Assembly: GCA_964617815.1 (NCBI GenBank) | Contig: CAZTXY010000001.1 | Span: forward strand, 67,120 to 131,119 | From: an uncultured Candidatus Saccharibacteria bacterium | Lineage (GTDB): Bacteria > Patescibacteriota > Doudnabacteria > UBA920 | Direction of reading: 5' to 3' | DNA: 64,000 nt | Shown: in pieces, positions 2,933 through 27,951 of the stretch | Numbering within the stretch: the stretch's first letter is position 1 | Layout: every line of letters begins with the position of its first letter | The notes under the pieces: generated by a model | Told to the model about the DNA's origin: nothing | The model's database searches: none | Seen by the model: the letters and a program-made list of their open reading frames with translations, nothing else | Position numbers and translations under genes: made by a program

Positions 2933-4288
2933 TTATTTCTTAGGCTTAATTACATCAACGCCAACATATTTTCGCAAGACTTCTGGCACCACGATACTAC
3001 CGTCTGCCTGCTGATAATTTTCAAGCAGAGGGATGAGGATGCGAGGACTGGCGACCGCAGTATTATTTAATGTATAAGCAAATTTTGTTTTGCCTTCACT
3101 GTCGCGATAGCGAATATTAAGGCGTCTGGCTTGCCAGTCCGTAAAACTCGAGTCGCTGTGAGTCTCTCCGTAACCGCTCCGCGATGGCATCCAAGTTTCA
3201 ATGTCATACATTTTATATTTTGCAGCACCCATATCCCCTGTGCAAATATTGAGTACGCGATATGGCAATTTTAAATCCTGCAGTATTTCTTCGGCAATTT
3301 GACGCAGGGTCTCCAGCCATTTTTCACTTTCATCCAAATCAGCTTTGCAAATAACCATCTGCTCCACTTTAACAAATTCGTGGATTCGATAAATCCCACG
3401 AGTGTCTTTACCATAACTACCAATTTCACTGCGATAACAAGTACTCACCCCAGAGACGGTAATTGGTAACTGTTTTTCGTCCAAGATTTGATCAGCATAA
3501 TAAGCCAAGAGTGAGGGTTCAGAAGTTCCACCTAAATATAATGACTCTTTGCCACTATCGTCTTCGTTATCAGACTGCTGTGAATTGGCGATGCGATAAA
3601 TTTCATCTCGCCCAGCCGGAAAATGGCCGCTACCAACAAGCGCAAACTCTTTGACTAAGGTTGGAGTAGACATAACCGTAAAACCGCGTCCTCGTAATTT
3701 TTCCAAGGCATACATAAGCAGACCTTGCTGTAACATTACCGCTTCATTTTTAAGATAATACCCGCGAAAACCAGACGTCGCCACACCACGTTCAGTATCA
3801 ATCAAATCCAGTTCCTGGCCAAGTGTCATATGATCTTTAATGGCAAAGTCAAACTTGGTTGGCACCTCTGAGACCTTAGCTTCGTCTTTAGGGTCTACGT
3901 GGCCCACAGTTGGCCCCCAATATGCCCAGGGCACATTACCACTGCTGTCCGGACCAATTGGGGTCTCTGGAGCAGGGACATTTGGGACTAACAACAACAG
4001 ATTTTCGTAGTCATGCTCAACTGTTTTTAATAACCCTTTTAGCTCAGTTTGTCTGCTGTCGATTTCCTGCATTTCTAAAATCTTAACTTTCTTTTCTTCC
4101 TCTGAAAGTTTAGGAATTTCTTTAGACACAGAATTTTTTGTAGCTTGAAGAGTTTCTGTTTCCGCTAACAACGAGCGTCTGCGCTCATCAAGAGCAAGCA
4201 ATTCGTCTAAATTAAGATTAATGCGCTTATCAACGATGGCTTTTTTCACCACCTCGCTATTTTCCCGAATATATTTGATGTCGAGCAT
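2933..4288 (-). CDS. serS: seryl-tRNA synthetase
   Basis: N-terminal coiled-coil followed by class II aaRS motifs. The start was trimmed to MLDIKYIREN. Confidence 0.9.
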   Translation of the reverse strand: MLDIKYIRENSEVVKKAIVDKRINLNLDELLALDERRRSLLAETETLQATKNSVSKEIPKLSEEEKKVKILEMQEIDSRQTELKGLLKTVEHDYENLLLLVPNVPAPETPIGPDSSGNVPWAYWGPTVGHVDPKDEAKVSEVPTKFDFAIKDHMTLGQELDLIDTERGVATSGFRGYYLKNEAVMLQQGLLMYALEKLRGRGFTVMSTPTLVKEFALVGSGHFPAGRDEIYRIANSQQSDNEDDSGKESLYLGGTSEPSLLAYYADQILDEKQLPITVSGVSTCYRSEIGSYGKDTRGIYRIHEFVKVEQMVICKADLDESEKWLETLRQIAEEILQDLKLPYRVLNICTGDMGAAKYKMYDIETWMPSRSGYGETHSDSSFTDWQARRLNIRYRDSEGKTKFAYTLNNTAVASPRILIPLLENYQQADGSIVVPEVLRKYVGVDVIKPKK

Positions 4289-21714: not shown

Positions 21715-22236
21715 CTATTTTGTTTCAGCACTAGGTGCTTCTTGGGTTACAGAGACATTAATCTCAATTGTACTTACTGTTTCTGACTTGTTCATCACTA
21801 TTGTAATTTGAGAGTCGCCTTTGCTTGCAACCAAAATTTTGCGAGTAGCTTCATTTATATCATTTTCAATTGACCATGAAGCTTTCTTAAAGTAATCCTT
21901 ATATATTTTATAATTCTCGTCTAAAGTTTTTTTGGTTTCAAAAACTCGTGTTGACTGCATCACTCCACTAACAGTAGTGGCATTGTAATTTTGTGTAACT
22001 TTTGCTCCCGACTCAAGTGGTAAATCGGTTGGAAACTTTTCTGGGAGTTTGCTTGACTCGACAGCAGTTTGGCTTACCTGAATTTTTGGCGTTTGGTTAT
22101 TTACCGACTTCCCACCAACATCCACCTTGTCACTATTTTTATAAAACTTATTAAAAGCCAACGCCCCGCCTGCTAAAATAACCATAAAGATTATCAACCA
22201 AACGAATTTTTTTGTTTGGGGTGATTGTTCGAGCAT
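21715..22236 (-). CDS. hypothetical membrane-anchored secreted protein
   Basis: 173 aa with an N-terminal TM helix. Confidence 0.5.
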   Translation of the reverse strand: MLEQSPQTKKFVWLIIFMVILAGGALAFNKFYKNSDKVDVGGKSVNNQTPKIQVSQTAVESSKLPEKFPTDLPLESGAKVTQNYNATTVSGVMQSTRVFETKKTLDENYKIYKDYFKKASWSIENDINEATRKILVASKGDSQITIVMNKSETVSTIEINVSVTQEAPSAETK

Positions 22237-22304
22237 ATTAATCTCCTTATTAAATGAACTTTTGTTTCTTAATTTTGTAAAACTTTATAAATAATTATAA
22301 CACC

Positions 22305-22358
22305 TTTATCAAAAATATCCAAAAATCAAAGGAGGGAGTCGTTTCAAACGACTCCCTC
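22305..22358 (-). terminator. Rho-independent terminator ending the high-GC two-gene unit
   Basis: 10-bp perfect stem gagggagtcg/cgactccctc followed by a T-rich run on the minus strand. Confidence 0.7.
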
Positions 22359-22447
22359 ACAGGTTCTGTAGTCCCTACCTAAGACAGGCAGACACCGGTT
22401 GCTGCACAGATCCTTCCTGTCAGTAGAATGATCATGCAAATCCTCCT

Positions 22448-22633
22448 TCATGAATTTGTTACTCCACCCACGGCACCACTGACCTTGGGTGTGTGATGAT
22501 GATTTACTCCCCCTCTGGGAAGCCTTCTTGATGCAAGCTTCTGCATCTGTTCTTCGAGCCGTCTACGTGCTTCCTTGCTGCCGTTTTTCTTTGCAACAGC
22601 TCGAGCCACGTTCTTCCCCCTCTTAATGTTCAT
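22448..22633 (-). CDS. small basic protein (61 aa), high-GC
   Basis: GGGGGG 4 nt upstream of the ATG. Arg/Lys-rich. It directly follows the Cys-rich ORF. Confidence 0.4.
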   Translation of the reverse strand: MNIKRGKNVARAVAKKNGSKEARRRLEEQMQKLASRRLPRGGVNHHHTPKVSGAVGGVTNS

Positions 22634-22642
22634 ACGGCCCCC

Positions 22643-23113
22643 CTAGTTGCGGACAAAGTACGACCGAGCCGAGCACCTCGGACCCGTAGAATCGAATGTC
22701 TCCTTTGGCGATGTGCTCGAGGACTTCGGTGAGACCTCAACTCGCCTGGTGTATGTCCCATTCTTGAAATCATCAGGAGTGAGTGCGCCGCTGTCGCGTG
22801 CAGCTTTGAATTCCGTGCAGTCGAAGGCCAAAAGCGTCTCCCTAGCCCCTCGAATCCCGCAAGCCGGGCACTGGTGACGATGCCTTCGCGCTGAGATCGT
22901 CTCCTGGTGACTGCCTATTTCCTTGCTTCTCGTCTCGCACTCATTCTCGCAAAAATGAGTCGCCAGAAATCCGAATGATCCGAAGACTTTACAGTCTTCG
23001 CATCGAAAACCCCAAGCATTGACGTGACAGTTACCATGGCTGGCAACACGAAATGGTATTGAATTACGCATTGGGCGTGCGCCAGTCGACTCGCTCGCAG
23101 TTCCTGATGACAT
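22643..23113 (-). CDS. Cys-rich zinc-finger-like protein, high-GC
   Basis: CxxC pairs at CEDC, CENEC and CPAC. AGGAGG sits immediately upstream of the ATG. Confidence 0.5.
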   Translation of the reverse strand: MSSGTASESTGARPMRNSIPFRVASHGNCHVNAWGFRCEDCKVFGSFGFLATHFCENECETRSKEIGSHQETISARRHRHQCPACGIRGARETLLAFDCTEFKAARDSGALTPDDFKNGTYTRRVEVSPKSSSTSPKETFDSTGPRCSARSYFVRN

Positions 23114-23164
23114 TCCATCTCCTCCTGCTGAAAATAGAATCCACGCCGTCTTTGACCCACAAAA

Positions 23165-23207
23165 TGTCGGACAAAAGAAAACTCGCTACTTTTTGAAGTA
23201 GCGAGTT
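23165..23207 (-). promoter_or_regulatory. terminator-like hairpin in the 5' leader of the Cys-rich gene (possible attenuator)
   Basis: 11-bp stem aactcgctact/agtagcgagtt. On the minus strand it is followed by tttcttttg, 52 nt before the ATG. Confidence 0.4.
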
Positions 23208-23418
23208 AACCTTTGTACAAAATTCTGCGTTTATATCAGTACGAGGTTGCTACTTCATTTTCCCAAAACTTAATGACACCAACAATGGAGGCCATTGCTA
23301 GAGTAGTGTAAGTAATTTGGTTACGATGAGTAGCTATATTCATATTTGTAAATCAAAATAAGCTTAAACAAAGTCCAAACATCTGTCAAATAATTTATCC
23401 ACAGCCTTAAACTACTAA

Positions 23419-23548
23419 CTAGTTCCGCCAGCCGGCGAATAGTGACTAGTGACAAGGATTTTGCTATAATAAATCCATATTAATATGTTCTGCGTGCTTT
23501 GTATCTTTACTTGGCTACTTGGAACTGTCCGCCGGCTGGCGGAACTAG
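23419..23548. repeat. 130-bp element with perfect 19-bp terminal inverted repeats; contains the lemA promoter
   Basis: ctagttccgccagccggcg at 23419-23437 is the reverse complement of cgccggctggcggaactag at 23530-23548. The extended -10 tgctataat is inside the loop. Confidence 0.85.
23462..23470 (+). promoter_or_regulatory. extended -10 (TGnTATAAT) promoter for lemA-htpX
   Basis: tgctataat lies 89 nt upstream of the lemA ATG. Confidence 0.5.
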
Positions 23549-25149: not shown

Positions 25150-25710
25150 CTATTCTGCACTCTCCGGTTTCGCCAGTTGCCGCGCGTTGTACTCGTCCAC
25201 ACAGCGATCGAAGAACTCATCTGCCCTCTCTGGGCCCGAATGAAAATCTGAAAAGCTGAACTGCCCAGCGCAAATGATCTCTAGGTGCTCATGAGATTTT
25301 ACGGTAAGACGCGAAGGACTGAGAGTCCCCGAAGCCATCTCGTCGTAAATCTTCTTGCCTTTGGCAAACAGCTCCTCACGCTGGAGTACACGAACGTGCC
25401 TTTGCATATGCCAAAGGTACGACCGATACCTTTCACGGATAACTCGCTCAACGCGGACTTCCCCCTCGCTCCAGTGAGTGGGAATTTTCGGCATTGAGTC
25501 AAGAGCGATCTCAAAGCCCTTTGCGATCTCGGCCCAGAAAGCCACACTCTCTGATTCCGGATGGAACCCTTTGCTCACAAGCGCCGCAACCATATAAACG
25601 TAAGGGTCAGTCCGACGCTCAAAGTTTATGGTCATAAGTTTGAAAGTCACAAACCAAGTCGCGAAGGCTGTGACTCCGATAATCAAAAAAACGCTGCCAA
25701 TCTCAAACAT
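25150..25710 (-). CDS. membrane-anchored protein of unknown function, paralog 1
   Basis: Start trimmed to MFEIGSV, with GGAGG 8 nt upstream. It has an N-terminal TM helix. It is about 40% identical to the protein at 27373..27951, sharing GFHPE and YxEMASGTLxPSxL. Confidence 0.7.
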   Translation of the reverse strand: MFEIGSVFLIIGVTAFATWFVTFKLMTINFERRTDPYVYMVAALVSKGFHPESESVAFWAEIAKGFEIALDSMPKIPTHWSEGEVRVERVIRERYRSYLWHMQRHVRVLQREELFAKGKKIYDEMASGTLSPSRLTVKSHEHLEIICAGQFSFSDFHSGPERADEFFDRCVDEYNARQLAKPESAE

Positions 25711-25716
25711 GGCGAA

Positions 25717-25738
25717 TTCCTCCGGCTGAAATGTCGAC
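25717..25738 (-). promoter_or_regulatory. conserved 22-nt 5' leader including the SD (copy 1)
   Basis: ttcctccggctgaaatgtcgac is identical to 27959-27980. Confidence 0.7.
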
Positions 25739-25743
25739 GCCCT

Positions 25744-25772
25744 AGTATAGTTATTCTTGCAATCCGAGTCAA
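25744..25772 (-). promoter_or_regulatory. sigma70-type promoter TTGACT-17-TATACT for paralog 1
   Basis: On the minus strand, ttgact then 17 nt then tatact. Confidence 0.7.
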
Positions 25773-25788
25773 TGCCTAACTTTGTAAT

Positions 25789-25837
25789 ATAAAAAAATCG
25801 AGGGGCAGACAAAACGCGAAAGCGTTCGCCTGCCCCT
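25789..25837 (-). terminator. Rho-independent terminator after purC
   Basis: GC-rich stem ggggcag...ctgcccc followed by ttttttt on the minus strand. Confidence 0.7.
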
Positions 25838-25842
25838 TTGCC

Positions 25843-26691
25843 TTACCGAATTGGATGTTTGAAAGCAAACCGACTGGTTTGCTCAGCGACCCAAGCATAG
25901 TTCTCCGCCAGCTTTTCCAAGTCACCGTCAGTGACCTTGGCCAAATCGCGGTAGACTTGCTTGTCTTTGAATTCTTGCTCATCGCGGAAGCGAATCCGCC
26001 AGGAGTCGTTGGTGATGTCGTCGGCAACCAGGATCTTCCCTGTAGCCGAATCGTACCCACACTCGATCTTCATGTCCCACAGGACAATTTCGAGTTCGTA
26101 CAACGCCACCTCCAGAATGCAAAACACGGCGATGGCAAGGTTGCCCAACTTCTGGACGTCATCGGCCGAAACAGTTCGGCCGCCGCGAGTCACAATTGCC
26201 GGAAGTTCACAGAGGAATCCTTGTTCCAAAGGCTTCGAAGCCACGTACATGTCCCAAGTTTGAGACACGTAGTCGTAGACGACCATCGGATCGTGATTAG
26301 CGTCATCCTTGAGGTAAAACTCAGGAGTCAATACTTCAAAGCGAGTGCCTTGAGCAACGTCGGGGTGGCGTTTGCAGTGCGACCCCGTAGCCAACCGCCG
26401 AATCACAATCTCAGCGGGGATCATGTCAACGCGATGCGCAATCATCCCCGTCAATCCAAACTCCCGAATGAAGTGAGTCGGCACACCGTGGTCGTTGAGA
26501 TGCCCCAAACAGTTCATGCTCGTTTGGTTGCACCACACGCCCTTCCCAGGCAAGGTATCGTGCCGAGCGCCGTCACCAGCGGTGATGTCATCTTTCTGGA
26601 AGATGACGACTCTGTTCGGATTTTCTGAAGTTCGGACCACTTTGGTCTTTCCTTCAATGAGAATCCTGCTCTTGTTCATCAAGTCATCCAT
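25843..26691 (-). CDS. purC: phosphoribosylaminoimidazole-succinocarboxamide (SAICAR) synthase
   Basis: LIEGKTKVV, GVPTHFI and KDDANHDPMV align with E. coli PurC. The start is MDDLMNK, with GGAGGG upstream. High-GC. Confidence 0.9.
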   Translation of the reverse strand: MDDLMNKSRILIEGKTKVVRTSENPNRVVIFQKDDITAGDGARHDTLPGKGVWCNQTSMNCLGHLNDHGVPTHFIREFGLTGMIAHRVDMIPAEIVIRRLATGSHCKRHPDVAQGTRFEVLTPEFYLKDDANHDPMVVYDYVSQTWDMYVASKPLEQGFLCELPAIVTRGGRTVSADDVQKLGNLAIAVFCILEVALYELEIVLWDMKIECGYDSATGKILVADDITNDSWRIRFRDEQEFKDKQVYRDLAKVTDGDLEKLAENYAWVAEQTSRFAFKHPIR

Positions 26692-27214
26692 CTTGCTTCC
26701 CTCCGTTTGAACTTTGAACCCCCACTTGCACTGACTTCCGATGAGTTTCGGAATATGTGAGAAGGTTACTGCTAACTGCTGGGTCCACCAGACCAACAGC
26801 AGTGCAAGCTGCTAAGCCGGCGTTGTGCAGTCCAGCTGAGTCAAGACCCAGCACGCAAACTGGCACACCTGGCGGCATTCGGACCATCGAAAGAAGTGAA
26901 TCCATGCCAGAAAGAATGTCAGCGCTTAGCGCCACACCAAAAACCTGCGCTCGGTTTGAAACATGCGAAGCAATTGCTCCGGGTAAGGCCGCCGCCATTC
27001 CAGCAACAGCAATAAACACGACCGTACCAGTCTGGAGCTTGTGCTCGCAGTACTGGCGCAAATCTTCGGGATTGCGGTGAGCGGAAATGATCGAAAGTTC
27101 CCAAGTGACTCCAACCCCGTTGAGGATTGGAAACAACTGAGACAATTTTACCATCTCCAAATCACTTGCACTCCCCAAAACAACAACCACGCTATGGCAA
27201 GCATCCAGAGACAC
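26684..27214 (-). CDS. purE: PurE-family mutase/carboxylase (N5-CAIR mutase or AIR carboxylase)
   Basis: VVVLGSASD, SAHRNP and AGMAAALPG align with PurE. The GTG start has AAGGAGG 5 nt upstream. Its TGA overlaps the purC ATG in ATGGATGA. Confidence 0.85.
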   Translation of the reverse strand: MSLDACHSVVVVLGSASDLEMVKLSQLFPILNGVGVTWELSIISAHRNPEDLRQYCEHKLQTGTVVFIAVAGMAAALPGAIASHVSNRAQVFGVALSADILSGMDSLLSMVRMPPGVPVCVLGLDSAGLHNAGLAACTAVGLVDPAVSSNLLTYSETHRKSVQVGVQSSNGGKQDG

Positions 27215-27266
27215 AACGCCCTCCTTGCTTCGCAGAGTTGCTCCTTGGAGCAGTAGAACCTGCCCT

Positions 27267-27295
27267 ATAGTAGAACACTGGCTTAAAAAAGGCAA
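27267..27295 (-). promoter_or_regulatory. candidate promoter TTGCCT-17-TACTAT for purE-purC
   Basis: It sits between the upstream terminator and the purE SD. Confidence 0.5.
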
Positions 27296-27309
27296 GATTC
27301 TCCTTCTTT

Positions 27310-27357
27310 TTTATTAAAAATGAAATGCGGCCGTCTCGATTTCTCGAAACGGCCGCC
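27310..27357 (-). terminator. Rho-independent terminator after paralog 2
   Basis: Stem gcggccgt...acggccgc followed by a T-run on the minus strand. Confidence 0.65.
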
Positions 27358-27372
27358 TAAAACCAAAGCCGA

Positions 27373-27951
27373 CTAGATGTCAGATTCACCCTCGCCCTCA
27401 TCCTCCGCACCGGTGGCTTGACTTGCCAAGTACTTCTCGACGCACTCATCGAAGAACTCAGAAAGCCCTCCCAAGCCAGAATGAACAGCGGAAAAACCGA
27501 AGTTCCCCGCATCCATGGCCCCTGTCAGTTCATTGGACTTTGTTCGCAGTTGGGACGGCTTCAACGTTCCCGAAGCCATCTCGTTGTAAAGACCCGTGGC
27601 CTTTACAAACATTTCCTCGTACCTGAGTAAGCTAATCCGACCCTTCAGTCCATTGAAGTAGAGGCCGTAAACATCACGTGCGTTCTGCTCGGCCAGCCGT
27701 TTCTCCTTAGACCAAGTGTCAGGAATTGGGCGCAAAGAATTGAAAGCCTTGCCAAACCCCTCTGCTTGCTTGGTCCAGAACTCAATGCTCCTCTGCTCGG
27801 GATGAAAGCCACTTGCCACAAGGGCCGAAAGCATGTCCATGCACGGCTTGTGCTTCCCTTGAAAGTGCCACTTGGCAAGTTGCCACGTTGCCATACACAC
27901 CACCATTACAAGAATAGTAGTGACTACTGCGACCTGGTCAGTCTGTAACAT
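27373..27951 (-). CDS. membrane-anchored protein of unknown function, paralog 2
   Basis: 192 aa with an N-terminal TM helix. GGAGG lies 7 nt upstream. It is the paralog of 25150..25710. Confidence 0.7.
   Translation of the reverse strand: MLQTDQVAVVTTILVMVVCMATWQLAKWHFQGKHKPCMDMLSALVASGFHPEQRSIEFWTKQAEGFGKAFNSLRPIPDTWSKEKRLAEQNARDVYGLYFNGLKGRISLLRYEEMFVKATGLYNEMASGTLKPSQLRTKSNELTGAMDAGNFGFSAVHSGLGGLSEFFDECVEKYLASQATGAEDEGEGESDI

What the first reader, a model, noticed from the sequence alone, without database searches (positions are those of the whole stretch)
22300..23210. Second high-GC module: Cys-rich zinc-finger-like protein plus small basic protein, with a terminator-like hairpin in the leader
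The segment 22.36-23.16 kb is GC-rich like the purEC island. It encodes a 156-aa protein with CEDC, CENEC and CPAC Cys clusters. A 61-aa Arg/Lys-rich ORF starts 10 nt after its stop. The unit ends in a perfect 10-bp GC-rich terminator. Just upstream of the first gene's SD, an 11-bp hairpin followed by a T-run is oriented as a terminator on the coding strand, giving an attenuator-like arrangement. An ~85-nt structured 3' UTR containing gacagg ... cctgtc lies between the small ORF and the terminator. The two-gene make-up is reminiscent of a toxin-antitoxin or phage-derived regulatory pair, but I cannot assign a family.
Basis: partly seen in the sequence, partly recalled or inferred. Interest (0 to 1): 0.55.

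Follow-up and report, generated by a model that had tools for sequence, protein, structure and literature searches.

The report
Orphan small-protein operon with attenuator leader
A GC-rich 0.9-kb stretch in an AT-rich Patescibacteria genome is a real operon under selection for three tiny proteins (a zinc-binding one, a very basic one and an 18-residue peptide); it is found in one narrow lineage only, sits behind a highly conserved switch-like RNA leader, and has no known function, so it is a modest curiosity.

Summary

- **Composition.** Window 22360-23160 has GC 0.51-0.57 against 0.33-0.40 in the flanks.
- **ORF1 and ORF2.** Both the 156-aa Cys/His-rich ORF1 and the 61-aa basic ORF2 (pI 12) are under purifying selection (dN/dS about 0.24 and 0.23).
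- **ORF3.** It is an 18-codon ORF with a strong Shine-Dalgarno (SD) site, and its differences among alleles are mostly synonymous (P=0.0004). The gacagg/cctgtc hairpin is not conserved.
- **Leader.** The upstream hairpin is an intrinsic terminator ending a roughly 190-nt leader. That leader is more conserved than the housekeeping genes, occurs only where ORF1 occurs, and can form a competing antiterminator. The "attenuator-like" idea is moderately supported.
- **Family.** None can be assigned. Pfam, NCBIfam, PHROGs, PADLOC, Rfam, PDB sequence searches and fold searches all fail. Searches of about 15 billion proteins find only four allele groups, all beside LemA in close relatives (Patescibacteria, near Doudnabacteria). 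Eighty related genomes lack the module.
- **Alleles.** They are mosaics of deep, recombining haplotypes.
- **TA or phage origin.** There is no positive support for either.

Verdict: a lineage-restricted orphan operon with a likely attenuator. Function is unknown and interest is moderate to low.

The parts
23361..23389 (-). Promoter-like site of the leader: TTGACA (23384-23389), 17-nt spacer, TAAGCT (23361-23366)
   Evidence: Read from the sequence. The TTGACA-17-TAnnnT layout is conserved in all allele groups, and the distant L013 has TAGAAT. The consensus scan did not list it because the -10 hexamer matches only 3 of 6 positions. Inferred, not shown.
23169..23354 (-). Structured leader transcript of about 190 nt, ending in the upstream terminator
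   Evidence: MFE -59.2 kcal/mol, z=-6.24 against 200 shuffles. It is 95-98% identical among three lineages whose housekeeping genes are 86-93% identical. A nucleotide profile finds it in every ORF1-bearing locus and in none of 80 LemA-anchored relatives. No Rfam family matches.
23236..23343 (-). 35-codon leader ORF (MNIATHRNQITYTTLAMASIVGVIKFWENEVATSY); no SD site
   Evidence: An ORF of 34-35 codons sits in the same position in all groups, including L013, where it is 30% identical with a shared KFW motif. Window vs L002: 0 of 23 synonymous sites changed against genome dS of about 0.6, so the constraint is on nucleotides. Never called as a gene in public data. Translation is inferred.
23326..23335 (-). 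Leader segment 1 (AGCUACUCAU), pairs with segment 2
   Evidence: The 1:2 duplex is -10.5 kcal/mol, which is not significant alone (11% of shuffles). In L013 it is -14.6 kcal/mol against the full upstream leader (5% of shuffles), or -13.9 for the defined segments.
23247..23258 (-). Leader segment 2 (AUGAAGUAGCAA), pairs with segment 1 or, as an antiterminator, with the 5' half of the terminator
   Evidence: GAAGUAGC is the exact complement of GCUACUUC in the terminator stem. The duplex is -13.7 kcal/mol and 0.4% of 2000 dinucleotide shuffles do as well. With segment 4 left out, the MFE pairs 2:3 in all five alleles.
23170..23207 (-). Upstream intrinsic terminator (stem 23180-23207, then UUUUCUUUUG): segments 3 and 4
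   Evidence: 12 pairs, 5 of them G-C, loop of 4, T-run. The hairpin energy is -16.2 kcal/mol. The stem core and T-tract are retained even in L013.
23119..23126 (-). Shine-Dalgarno site AGGAGGAG of ORF1
   Evidence: Read from the sequence; conserved in the alleles.
22643..23113 (-). ORF1, 156 aa, Cys/His-rich basic protein with an invariant core: GSH..T...R.HR..C..CGI.G...T.....C and a C-terminal R...R..FVR
   Evidence: dN/dS 0.24. GC3 0.56 against host 0.32-0.42. Homologues occur in four allele groups only. No family or fold can be assigned.
22448..22633 (-). ORF2, 61 aa, very basic (pI 12), predicted helical
   Evidence: The frame is kept through a 3-nt indel, with a TTG start in L002. dN/dS 0.23. 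It matches only designed helical repeats in PDB. Absent from L013.
22441..22449 (-). Shine-Dalgarno site GAAGGAGGA of ORF3, overlapping the ORF2 stop codon
   Evidence: Read from the sequence.
22379..22435 (-).
   Evidence: Of 10 variable codons among 6 sequences, 8 are purely synonymous. There are at least 10 synonymous against 3 non-synonymous events, binomial P=0.0004. dN/dS is 0.00-0.04. GRAVY 1.78.
22322..22358 (-). Downstream intrinsic terminator of the operon (stem 22332-22358 plus T-run)
   Evidence: 12 pairs, 7 of them G-C. The stem GAGGGAGUCG/CGACUCCCUC is conserved with different loops among alleles.
22294..22321 (-). Promoter-like site of the next gene (173-aa membrane-anchored protein, then gatC and gatA); marks the end of the module
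   Evidence: TGGATA-16-TATAAT with TG, 10 of 12 matches.

Best explanation
This is a chromosomal operon restricted to one narrow Patescibacteria lineage near Ca. Doudnabacteria. It encodes three small proteins and is gated by a transcription attenuator.

Proposed mechanism:
1. A promoter-like site (TTGACA-17-TAAGCT) drives a leader of about 190 nt that carries a 35-codon ORF and ends in an intrinsic terminator.
2. Leader segment 2 can pair with segment 1, which lets the terminator (3:4) form, so the operon is OFF.
3. Alternatively, segment 2 pairs with the terminator's 5' half (2:3, an antiterminator). Transcription then runs into ORF1-ORF2-ORF3, so the operon is ON.
4. The choice is most likely set by where a ribosome sits on the leader ORF (ribosome-mediated attenuation), or otherwise by a trans-acting factor.

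The products are: ORF1, a basic Cys/His protein with a CxxCG zinc knuckle that probably binds zinc and a nucleic acid or a protein; ORF2, a very basic helical protein; and ORF3, an 18-residue hydrophobic peptide.

Shown:
- The three ORFs are coding and under purifying selection.
- The two terminators are present.
- The leader is conserved, structured and linked to ORF1.
- The alternative pairing exists.

Inferred:
- The promoter.
- Translation of the leader ORF.
- Read-through as the route of expression.
- Zinc binding.
- Any cellular role.
For: Coding status:
- ORF1 codon-position differences are 28/16/8 for positions 3/1/2.
- dN/dS is 0.24 (ORF1), 0.23 (ORF2) and 0.04 (ORF3), against 0.03-0.06 for the neighbouring housekeeping genes.
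- ORF3 has at least 10 synonymous against 3 non-synonymous events, P=0.0004.
- ORF1 and ORF3 have strong SD sites, and ORF2 is preceded by a G-run.
- ORF1 is conserved at protein level in a distant locus (L013, E=2e-11) whose DNA has diverged.

Operon limits:
- Terminators lie at 23180-23207 and 22332-22358, and the next gene has its own promoter-like site.

Attenuator:
- No sigma-70-like site lies between the upstream terminator and ORF1.
- No minus-strand gene lies upstream other than the leader, because LemA is transcribed divergently.
- The leader folds with z=-6.2.
- It is 95-98% identical among lineages whose gatA, gatC and p173 genes are 86-93% identical.
- It is present in all four ORF1-bearing groups and in none of 80 relatives.
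- The 2:3 duplex of -13.7 kcal/mol is matched by 0.4% of shuffles.
- Transcripts truncated before segment 4 fold into 2:3 in all five alleles.
- GCUAC and GUAGC each occur twice at homologous positions, against about 0.12 expected. The adjacent base changes together from U/A to C/G in L013.

Zinc knuckle:
- H69, H78, C82, C85, G86 and C99 are invariant.
- The region weakly resembles the C(P)XCG zinc-finger protein HVO_2753 (6ydh), E=0.032 and 0.29.

Published precedents for ribosome-mediated attenuators without amino-acid codon runs are bmrB-bmrCD (PMC4191407) and mef/mel (PMC4335068).
Against: - The leader ORF has no SD site and a very short 5' UTR.
- Among the close lineages its few differences are mostly non-synonymous, so it may not be translated.
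- No run of codons for one amino acid is conserved between the window-type and L013 leader peptides.
- In L013 the simple 2:3 duplex is no better than shuffles.
- At equilibrium the terminator forms under every ribosome position modelled, so any switching would have to be kinetic.
- The -10 hexamer is poor in the window type.
- A weak promoter before ORF1 (TCTATTTTC) cannot be excluded.
- Only five distinct leader sequences exist, four of them nearly identical, so covariation rests on very few events.
- The ORF1 structure model is of low confidence (pLDDT 57) and no fold match was found.
- Zinc binding and the binding partner are guesses.
- One allele lacks the first two Cys clusters.
Confidence: 0.55

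Rival explanations
1. The upstream hairpin simply ends an independent small gene: either an sRNA of about 190 nt or a 35-aa membrane-type peptide. ORF1-3 would be transcribed from their own unrecognised promoter, and the resemblance to an attenuator would be incidental.
For: - The leader unit has its own promoter-like site and a strong terminator.
- Its composition is host-like (GC 0.38) whereas the island's is 0.54.
- The 34-35-codon ORF with a KFW motif and a hydrophobic stretch is kept in L013.
- The 2:3 pairing is not significant in L013.
- A -10-like TCTATTTTC / TCTAATTTTC precedes the ORF1 SD site in both lineages.
Against: - The leader co-occurs strictly with ORF1 in 4 of 4 groups and in 0 of 80 relatives.
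- The exact 8-nt complementarity between segment 2 and the terminator is matched by only 0.4% of shuffles.
- The bases next to the four GCUAC/GUAGC copies change in concert.
- The scan finds no promoter after the terminator.
Confidence: 0.25
2. The three ORFs form a conflict or compatibility module: toxin-antidote-like, or peptide toxin plus immunity. ORF3 or ORF2 would be the harmful product and ORF1 the neutraliser or regulator, with allele classes kept by balancing selection.
For: - The module is an orphan with an extremely narrow distribution.
- It sits in a variable gap between GatC and LemA, which are adjacent in many relatives.
- Its atypical GC3 persists even in the distant L013.
- Each segment has two deep allele classes that are reassorted. 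ORF1 mid is 0.92 against 0.64, the ORF2 5' half is 0.54 against 0.94, and the 3' end groups differently again. Divergence between classes far exceeds the host's.
- Gene content varies: ORF2/3 are absent in L013 and ORF1 carries a 52-codon deletion in group C.
- The products are small: one hydrophobic, one very basic and one Cys-rich.
Against: - No PADLOC, Pfam, NCBIfam or PHROGs match exists for any product.
- It is single-copy at a fixed syntenic position and is not mobile or patchy across taxa.
- All three genes are under purifying selection rather than positive selection.
- ORF3 has an Arg in mid-sequence and is too short to span a membrane.
- ORF1 persists alone in L013.
Confidence: 0.2
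3. The module is a remnant of a recently acquired mobile element, phage or plasmid, and is GC-rich because it is foreign.
For: - GC is 0.54 and GC3 0.56 against host values of about 0.38 and 0.32-0.42.
- A second GC-rich block (purE/purC) lies 2 kb away and is also confined to this lineage.
Against: - No match was found in IMG/VR, phage or plasmid collections, or among viral predicted structures.
- No integrase, repeats or tRNA lie at the borders.
- The same locus is occupied in lineages separated by dS 0.6 to saturation, with GC3 unchanged, so the module is old and has not drifted toward host composition.
- The AT-rich leader travels with it.
Confidence: 0.1
4. The GC-rich block is a structured non-coding RNA and the ORFs are accidental.
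For: - GC-rich islands in AT-rich genomes are often RNA genes.
- The island folds somewhat better than shuffles (z=-2.8 on the sense strand, -4.6 on the antisense strand, 20 shuffles, terminator included).
Against: - No Rfam hit was found.
- Differences are biased to third codon positions, and dN/dS is well below 1 in three consecutive ORFs, each preceded by an SD-like sequence.
- Indels are in frame: 3 nt in ORF2 and 156 nt in ORF1.
- ORF1 shows protein-level homology at 33-35% identity with diverged DNA.
- The one proposed hairpin is not conserved.
Confidence: 0.03

Closest known systems
Ribosome-mediated transcription attenuators (trpL/thrL type; bmrB-bmrCD of Bacillus subtilis, PMC4191407; mef/mel leader, PMC4335068)
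   Same: A promoter, a short leader ORF and an intrinsic terminator lie directly upstream of the regulated genes. Four successive segments allow mutually exclusive 1:2 / 3:4 and 2:3 pairings. The leader ORF spans segments 1 and 2 and stops just after segment 2.
   Different: There is no SD site on the leader ORF and no conserved run of codons for one amino acid. The leader matches no described family, the regulated genes are of unknown function, and read-through has not been shown.
C(P)XCG zinc-finger micro-proteins of Haloferax volcanii (HVO_2753, DUF1610, PDB 6ydh; PMC11241148, PMC10716476)
   Same: The knuckle motif RRHRHxC(P)xCG aligns with residues 7-34 of 6ydh. L013 has two CxxCG motifs. 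The protein is small, basic and of no known enzymatic type.
   Different: Scores are far below the family threshold (13.3 bits against a cut-off of 80). ORF1 is 104-156 aa rather than under 70. It is bacterial. One allele keeps only one CxxC. Zinc binding is untested.
Type II toxin-antitoxin operons
   Same: Adjacent, co-directional small genes a few nucleotides apart, one of them very basic, in a variable genome region.
   Different: There is no homology to any known toxin or antitoxin. The module has three genes rather than two, sits at a fixed single locus in one lineage, and has a terminator-based leader rather than an autoregulated promoter. The partner genes are missing in one lineage.
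Zinc-binding anti-sigma factors (ZAS, H-x3-C-x2-C motif)
   Same: H78-x3-C82-x2-C85 is invariant in all alleles.
   Different: No zf-HC2 Pfam match appears even at E<=10. The motif carries Pro/Gly typical of a knuckle rather than a helix. The immediate neighbours, LemA and the 173-aa protein, are not sigma factors.

Membership tests
Leader-peptide transcription attenuator | Intrinsic terminator between a promoter-proximal leader and the structural genes, on the coding strand | tested here: met
   The hairpin at 23180-23207 plus T-run lies 56 nt before the ORF1 start codon. It is conserved in all allele groups.
Leader-peptide transcription attenuator | Alternative antiterminator pairing that excludes the terminator | tested here: met
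   In the window type, the 8-nt exact complement gives -13.7 kcal/mol and 0.4% of shuffles do as well. 2:3 is the MFE of the truncated transcript in 5 of 5 alleles. In L013 the simple duplex is not significant on its own.
Leader-peptide transcription attenuator | Translated leader ORF overlapping segments 1-2 | tested here: inconclusive
   An ORF of 34-35 codons is kept in the same place in all groups. However, it has no SD site, dS=0 with the only change non-synonymous, and it has never been called as a gene.
Leader-peptide transcription attenuator | Run of regulatory codons for the sensed amino acid | tested here: not met
   The window-type peptide is Thr-rich (TYTT). L013 has no such run, and only KFW and a hydrophobic stretch are shared. 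This feature is not required for the bmrB or mef type.
Leader-peptide transcription attenuator | Condition-dependent read-through transcripts | not testable with these tools
   Needs Term-seq or RNA-seq of the organism or community.
HVO_2753 / DUF1610 zinc-finger proteins | Significant match to the family model | tested here: not met
   NF041909 scores 13.3 bits against a cut-off of 80. PDB 6ydh gives E=0.032 for the single sequence and 0.29 for the profile. There is no DUF1610 Pfam hit.
HVO_2753 / DUF1610 zinc-finger proteins | Two C(P)XCG motifs in a protein of under 70 aa | tested here: not met
   The window has CPACG plus CEDCK, L013 has CINCG plus CDECG, and group C has only CLTCG. Lengths are 104-156 aa.
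Type II toxin-antitoxin module | Homology of either product to a known toxin or antitoxin family | tested here: not met
   Pfam, NCBIfam, PADLOC and PHROGs give nothing significant.
Type II toxin-antitoxin module | Partners co-conserved as a pair, with a mobile or patchy distribution | tested here: not met
   L013 has ORF1 without ORF2/ORF3. All occurrences are syntenic beside LemA. There are no phage or plasmid copies.
Type II toxin-antitoxin module | Toxicity of one product, neutralised by the other | not testable with these tools
   Needs expression experiments.
Any Rfam RNA family (riboswitch, T-box, known leader, sRNA) | Match to a covariance model | tested here: not met
   Only two tRNAs reach gathering score in the window. 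A permissive scan of 22200-23400 gives only chance-level hits, with a best E of 0.096 to a microRNA model.
Zinc-binding anti-sigma factor (ZAS) | zf-HC2 domain match and an adjacent sigma factor gene | tested here: not met
   The H-x3-C-x2-C motif is present, but no Pfam zf-HC2 hit appears at E<=10. The immediate neighbours are LemA and a 173-aa DUF6845-like protein.

The most novel reading that the evidence does not exclude
The leader would be a new class of attenuator that senses ribosome stalling or a ligand. The three-gene module would be a new strain-compatibility or toxin-antidote-like system of episymbiotic Patescibacteria. Its components would be maintained as ancient allele classes, reshuffled by recombination at a fixed chromosomal site. 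That would explain the persistent foreign-looking GC content, the deep mosaic haplotypes and the absence of homologues anywhere else.
Probability: 0.15. Interest if true: 0.6.

Novelty: new variant of a known kind. Interest (0 to 1): 0.35.

Why it matters
Patescibacteria genomes are small and full of unassigned genes, and very little is known about how they regulate anything.

This locus offers a compact, testable case:
- A candidate terminator/antiterminator leader, more conserved than the housekeeping genes around it.
- Three very small proteins under purifying selection, one of them an 18-residue peptide that gene callers miss.

If the attenuator is real, it would be, as far as the papers searched here show, an early example of leader-based regulation in this group. 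If the deep, recombining allele classes reflect balancing selection, the module may bear on strain-level interactions.

If neither holds, this is one more lineage-specific hypothetical operon. It is also a practical reminder that a GC-rich "3' UTR" can hide a micro-ORF.

Tried and rejected
- **Structured RNA gene in the GC-rich block.** Rfam at gathering and permissive thresholds found nothing. The fold z-scores are modest. Coding signals are clear, so this was rejected.
- **Hypervariable island.** The first alignment suggested near-identical flanks around a divergent island. Calibration with housekeeping genes (dS 0.35-0.71) showed the island is not unusually divergent overall. The leader and intergenic region are unusually conserved instead. 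The hypermutation and DGR idea was dropped: the substitution spectrum has no adenine bias, and no reverse transcriptase gene was noted among the neighbouring genes examined.
- **Family assignment for ORF1, ORF2, the leader peptide and p173.** Pfam, PHROGs, PADLOC, NCBIfam and PDB sequence searches gave nothing significant.
- **More homologues.** Three word-indexed searches and the exhaustive profile search found four allele groups in all; the metagenome scan added nothing new and the viral scan found none.
- **Empty-site comparison.** The 80 LemA-anchored genomes are too distant for nucleotide-level border mapping.
- **Column-based covariation on the leader.** Abandoned because MAFFT misaligns segment 1 of L013 and four of the five sequences are nearly identical. 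Shuffle tests and direct segment comparison replaced it.
- **ZAS anti-sigma and ribosomal-protein paralogue ideas.** Considered from motifs and charge; no model support.
Full report
**1. What is in the sequence**

All features of the finding lie on the minus strand. In 300-nt windows, GC rises to 0.51-0.57 between about 22350 and 23100, against 0.33-0.38 on both sides.

The ORF list gives a 156-aa ORF1 at 22643-23113 with CEDC, CENEC and CPAC clusters. A 61-aa ORF2 follows at 22448-22633, starting 9 nt after the ORF1 stop.

A consensus scan finds two intrinsic-terminator-like sites on the minus strand:
- 23180-23207: 12 pairs, followed by UUUUCUUUUG.
- 22332-22358: 12 pairs, 7 of them G-C, followed by a T-run.

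The scan also finds a good promoter-like site for the next gene at 22294-22321. It finds none between the upstream terminator and ORF1.

**2. Are the ORFs real?**

The large protein searches found almost nothing, but what they found is useful.
- ORF1 has one 88%-identical relative among 5.8 billion clustered proteins.
- An exhaustive profile search of 1.84 billion representatives adds one distant relative (P0005, E=2e-11).
- ORF2 has one 82%-identical relative.

Fetching the contigs gave four allele groups:
- A: the window and L007-9.
- B: L001-6.
- C: L010-12.
- D: L013.

All four are in the same place: divergent from LemA and upstream of a 173-aa protein, gatC and gatA.

Between A and B, ORF1 differences fall 28/16/8 on codon positions 3/1/2. 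With neighbouring genes as a baseline (dS 0.35-0.71, dN/dS 0.03-0.06), the ORFs compare as follows:

| ORF | dS | dN/dS |
|---|---|---|
| ORF1 | 0.29 | 0.24 |
| ORF2 | 1.39 | 0.23 |

ORF2 keeps its frame and stop through a 3-nt indel and a change of start codon. Group C carries a 156-nt in-frame deletion in ORF1, giving 104 aa. Group D's ORF1 is 33-35% identical at protein level, with DNA diverged to about 43% identity. Both ORFs are therefore protein-coding and under selection.

**3. The '3' UTR' is a third gene**

Directly after the ORF2 stop comes GAAGGAGGA, a 6-nt spacer, and an ATG that opens an 18-codon ORF at 22379-22435: MIILLTGRICAATGVCLS.
- Among six sequences, ten codons vary. Eight vary only synonymously.
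- There are at least 10 synonymous against 3 non-synonymous events, where 28% synonymous is expected. This gives P=0.0004.
- dN/dS is 0.00-0.04.

The others read cctgac, and their predicted folds differ. Group D has no ORF2 or ORF3: its ORF1 is followed directly by its own terminator.

**4. The upstream hairpin and the leader**

The baseline reversed my first impression. The island is not hypervariable. Instead, the AT-rich segment upstream of it is unusually conserved.
- From the leader ATG to the T-tract, it is 95-98% identical among lineages A, B and C. Their gatA, gatC and p173 genes are 86-93% identical.
- In the 35-codon frame it contains, 0 of 23 synonymous sites differ between A and B.

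The segment (23169-23389) starts with TTGACA-17-TAAGCT (TAGAAT in group D). It contains a 34-35-codon ORF without an SD site and ends in the 23180-23207 terminator. It folds with z=-6.2.

A nucleotide profile finds it in every ORF1-bearing locus. It finds it in none of 80 LemA-anchored loci from related genomes, and nowhere else in the window. Because LemA is divergent, no other minus-strand gene could own this terminator.

Evidence for a four-segment attenuator layout:
- The motif GCUAC occurs at segment 1 and in the terminator's 5' half. GUAGC occurs at segment 2 and in the 3' half. Each is expected about 0.12 times in this sequence. The adjacent base is U/A in the window type and C/G in group D.
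- Segment 2 (GAAGUAGC) is the exact complement of the terminator's GCUACUUC. The duplex is -13.7 kcal/mol, and 0.4% of 2000 dinucleotide shuffles of the leader do as well.
- If segment 4 is withheld, the MFE pairs 2:3 in all five alleles.

This is the layout of a classical attenuator, and I take it as the most likely regulatory mechanism.

The caveats are real:
- In group D the simple 2:3 duplex is not better than chance.
- The full-length transcript always prefers the terminator in equilibrium models.
- The leader ORF lacks an SD site and has no conserved codon run.
- Very few independent sequences exist.

Published ribosome-mediated attenuators without amino-acid codon runs (bmrB-bmrCD, PMC4191407; mef/mel, PMC4335068) show that such a run is not required.

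**5. What are the proteins?**

No family could be assigned. The following gave nothing significant:
- Pfam.
- PHROGs.
- PADLOC.
- NCBIfam.
- PDB sequence searches.

The only recurring hint is a weak resemblance of RRHRHxCxxCG to the C(P)XCG zinc-finger micro-protein HVO_2753/DUF1610. The values are E=0.032 and 0.29 against PDB, and 13.3 bits against a cut-off of 80 in NCBIfam.

Columns invariant in all four groups are G67, S68, H69, T72, R76, H78, R79, C82, C85, G86, I87, G89, T93 and C99. A C-terminal R..R..FVR is also invariant. The first two Cys clusters are dispensable because they are deleted in group C.

Physicochemical properties:
- ORF1 is basic (pI 8.8-10).
- ORF2 is very basic (pI 11.4-12) and matches only designed helical repeats.
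- ORF3 is hydrophobic (GRAVY 1.78).

A zinc knuckle that binds nucleic acid or protein is my inference, not a result.

**6. Distribution and origin**

The nearest genomes by LemA (73-88% identity) are Patescibacteria MAGs labelled Doudnabacteria or 'Saccharibacteria'.
- None of the 80 loci has ORF1 or the leader.
- In many of them gatC abuts LemA directly. In others the gap holds unrelated genes. The module therefore occupies a variable spot.
- There is no match in IMG/VR, or in phage or plasmid records at protein or DNA level. The metagenome scan returned only a contig already in hand.
- GC3 of ORF1 is 0.54-0.58 in all groups, including D, against 0.32-0.42 in host genes. The composition is old and has been maintained, so it is not a sign of recent arrival.

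**7. Mosaic alleles**

Per-segment identities show two deep classes in each segment, combined differently in different lineages:

| Segment | Pair | Identity | Pair | Identity |
|---|---|---|---|---|
| ORF1 mid | A-B | 0.92 | A-C | 0.64 |
| ORF2 5' half | A-B | 0.54 | A-C | 0.94 |

The 3' end plus the p173 promoter groups B with L011 (0.91-0.98) and A with L010 (0.86-0.91). Yet L010 and L011 are 0.98-1.00 identical in ORF1 and ORF2.

Divergence between classes far exceeds that of the hosts (about 0.87-0.93). This requires recombination among long-separated haplotypes. It is the one feature that hints at a conflict or compatibility role, but dN/dS stays well below 1.

**8. Verdict**

The attenuator idea is plausible, while a TA or phage origin has no positive evidence.

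The best description is a lineage-restricted orphan operon of three small proteins behind a candidate attenuator. The mechanisms involved are of known kinds, while the families are undescribed. Interest is moderate to low unless the attenuator or the allele-class pattern is confirmed experimentally.

Noticed in passing
window 23419-23548: A 32-nt inverted repeat (arms 23419-23450 and 23517-23548, 84% complementary) brackets the LemA promoter-like site (23442-23470). At the same position, related loci carry quite different palindromes (L010 GGGTCATCCTTG...CAAGGATGACCC; L011 CTAGCTACTAGT...ACTAGTAGCTAG). This looks like a swappable palindromic element or operator.
   Followed up: partly
window 25150-27951: The other GC-rich block holds purC (25843-26796, SAICAR_synt) and purE (26684-27295, AIRC). 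It is flanked by two paralogous ORFs with no Pfam match (220 aa and 192 aa, 37-40% identical to each other's orthologues). Lineage B (L001) has an extra purH there. None of the 80 LemA-anchored relatives has purE or purC within 4 kb.
   Followed up: partly
L013 1342-1806 (protein P0005): The database protein P0005 (197 aa) reads through a TGA stop and starts too early. With code 11 and the SD-proximal ATG, the ORF1 homologue is 154 aa and ends ...WFVRSGV, aligning with the window's ...YFVRN end.
   Followed up: yes
L010-L012 (e.g. L012 132-446): The group C ORF1 carries an in-frame 156-nt deletion removing residues ~9-60 (the CEDC and CENEC clusters), yet it keeps its SD site, start codon, C-terminal motif and reading frame. 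L010's gene was not called at all by the public annotation.
   Followed up: yes
L014-L033, upstream of LemA (locus coordinates below 4000): The gap between gatC and LemA is a hotspot of lineage-specific content in this group: it is empty in several genomes, and holds SecA plus a TrpR/YerC-like gene or other ORFs in others. L014 has a GC-rich (0.55) 53-aa ORF with a CxxC motif at 3040-3201 that is not homologous to ORF1.
   Followed up: partly
window 23114-23140: A predicted 11-bp hairpin (AUUCUAUUUUC / GGAGAUGGAAU) encloses part of the ORF1 Shine-Dalgarno site and ends at the start codon. The two substitutions in lineage B keep the pairing via G-U. This could add translational control, or it could be a weak -10-like element (TCTATTTTC; L013 has TCTAATTTTC).
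   Followed up: no
window 22643-22690: The last 14 codons of ORF1 (GPRCSARSYFVRN) are invariant in groups A-C and differ only by three synonymous changes, although the rest of ORF1 is only 64% identical between A and C. This is either a functionally critical C-terminal tail or a recombination junction.
   Followed up: partly
window 21715-22236: The 173-aa gene downstream of the module has an N-terminal hydrophobic anchor and only weak domain hints (DUF6845 E=0.004; AF_1845 'weak' in precomputed hits). Homologues occur in L016, which lacks ORF1, so it is not part of the module.
   Followed up: partly
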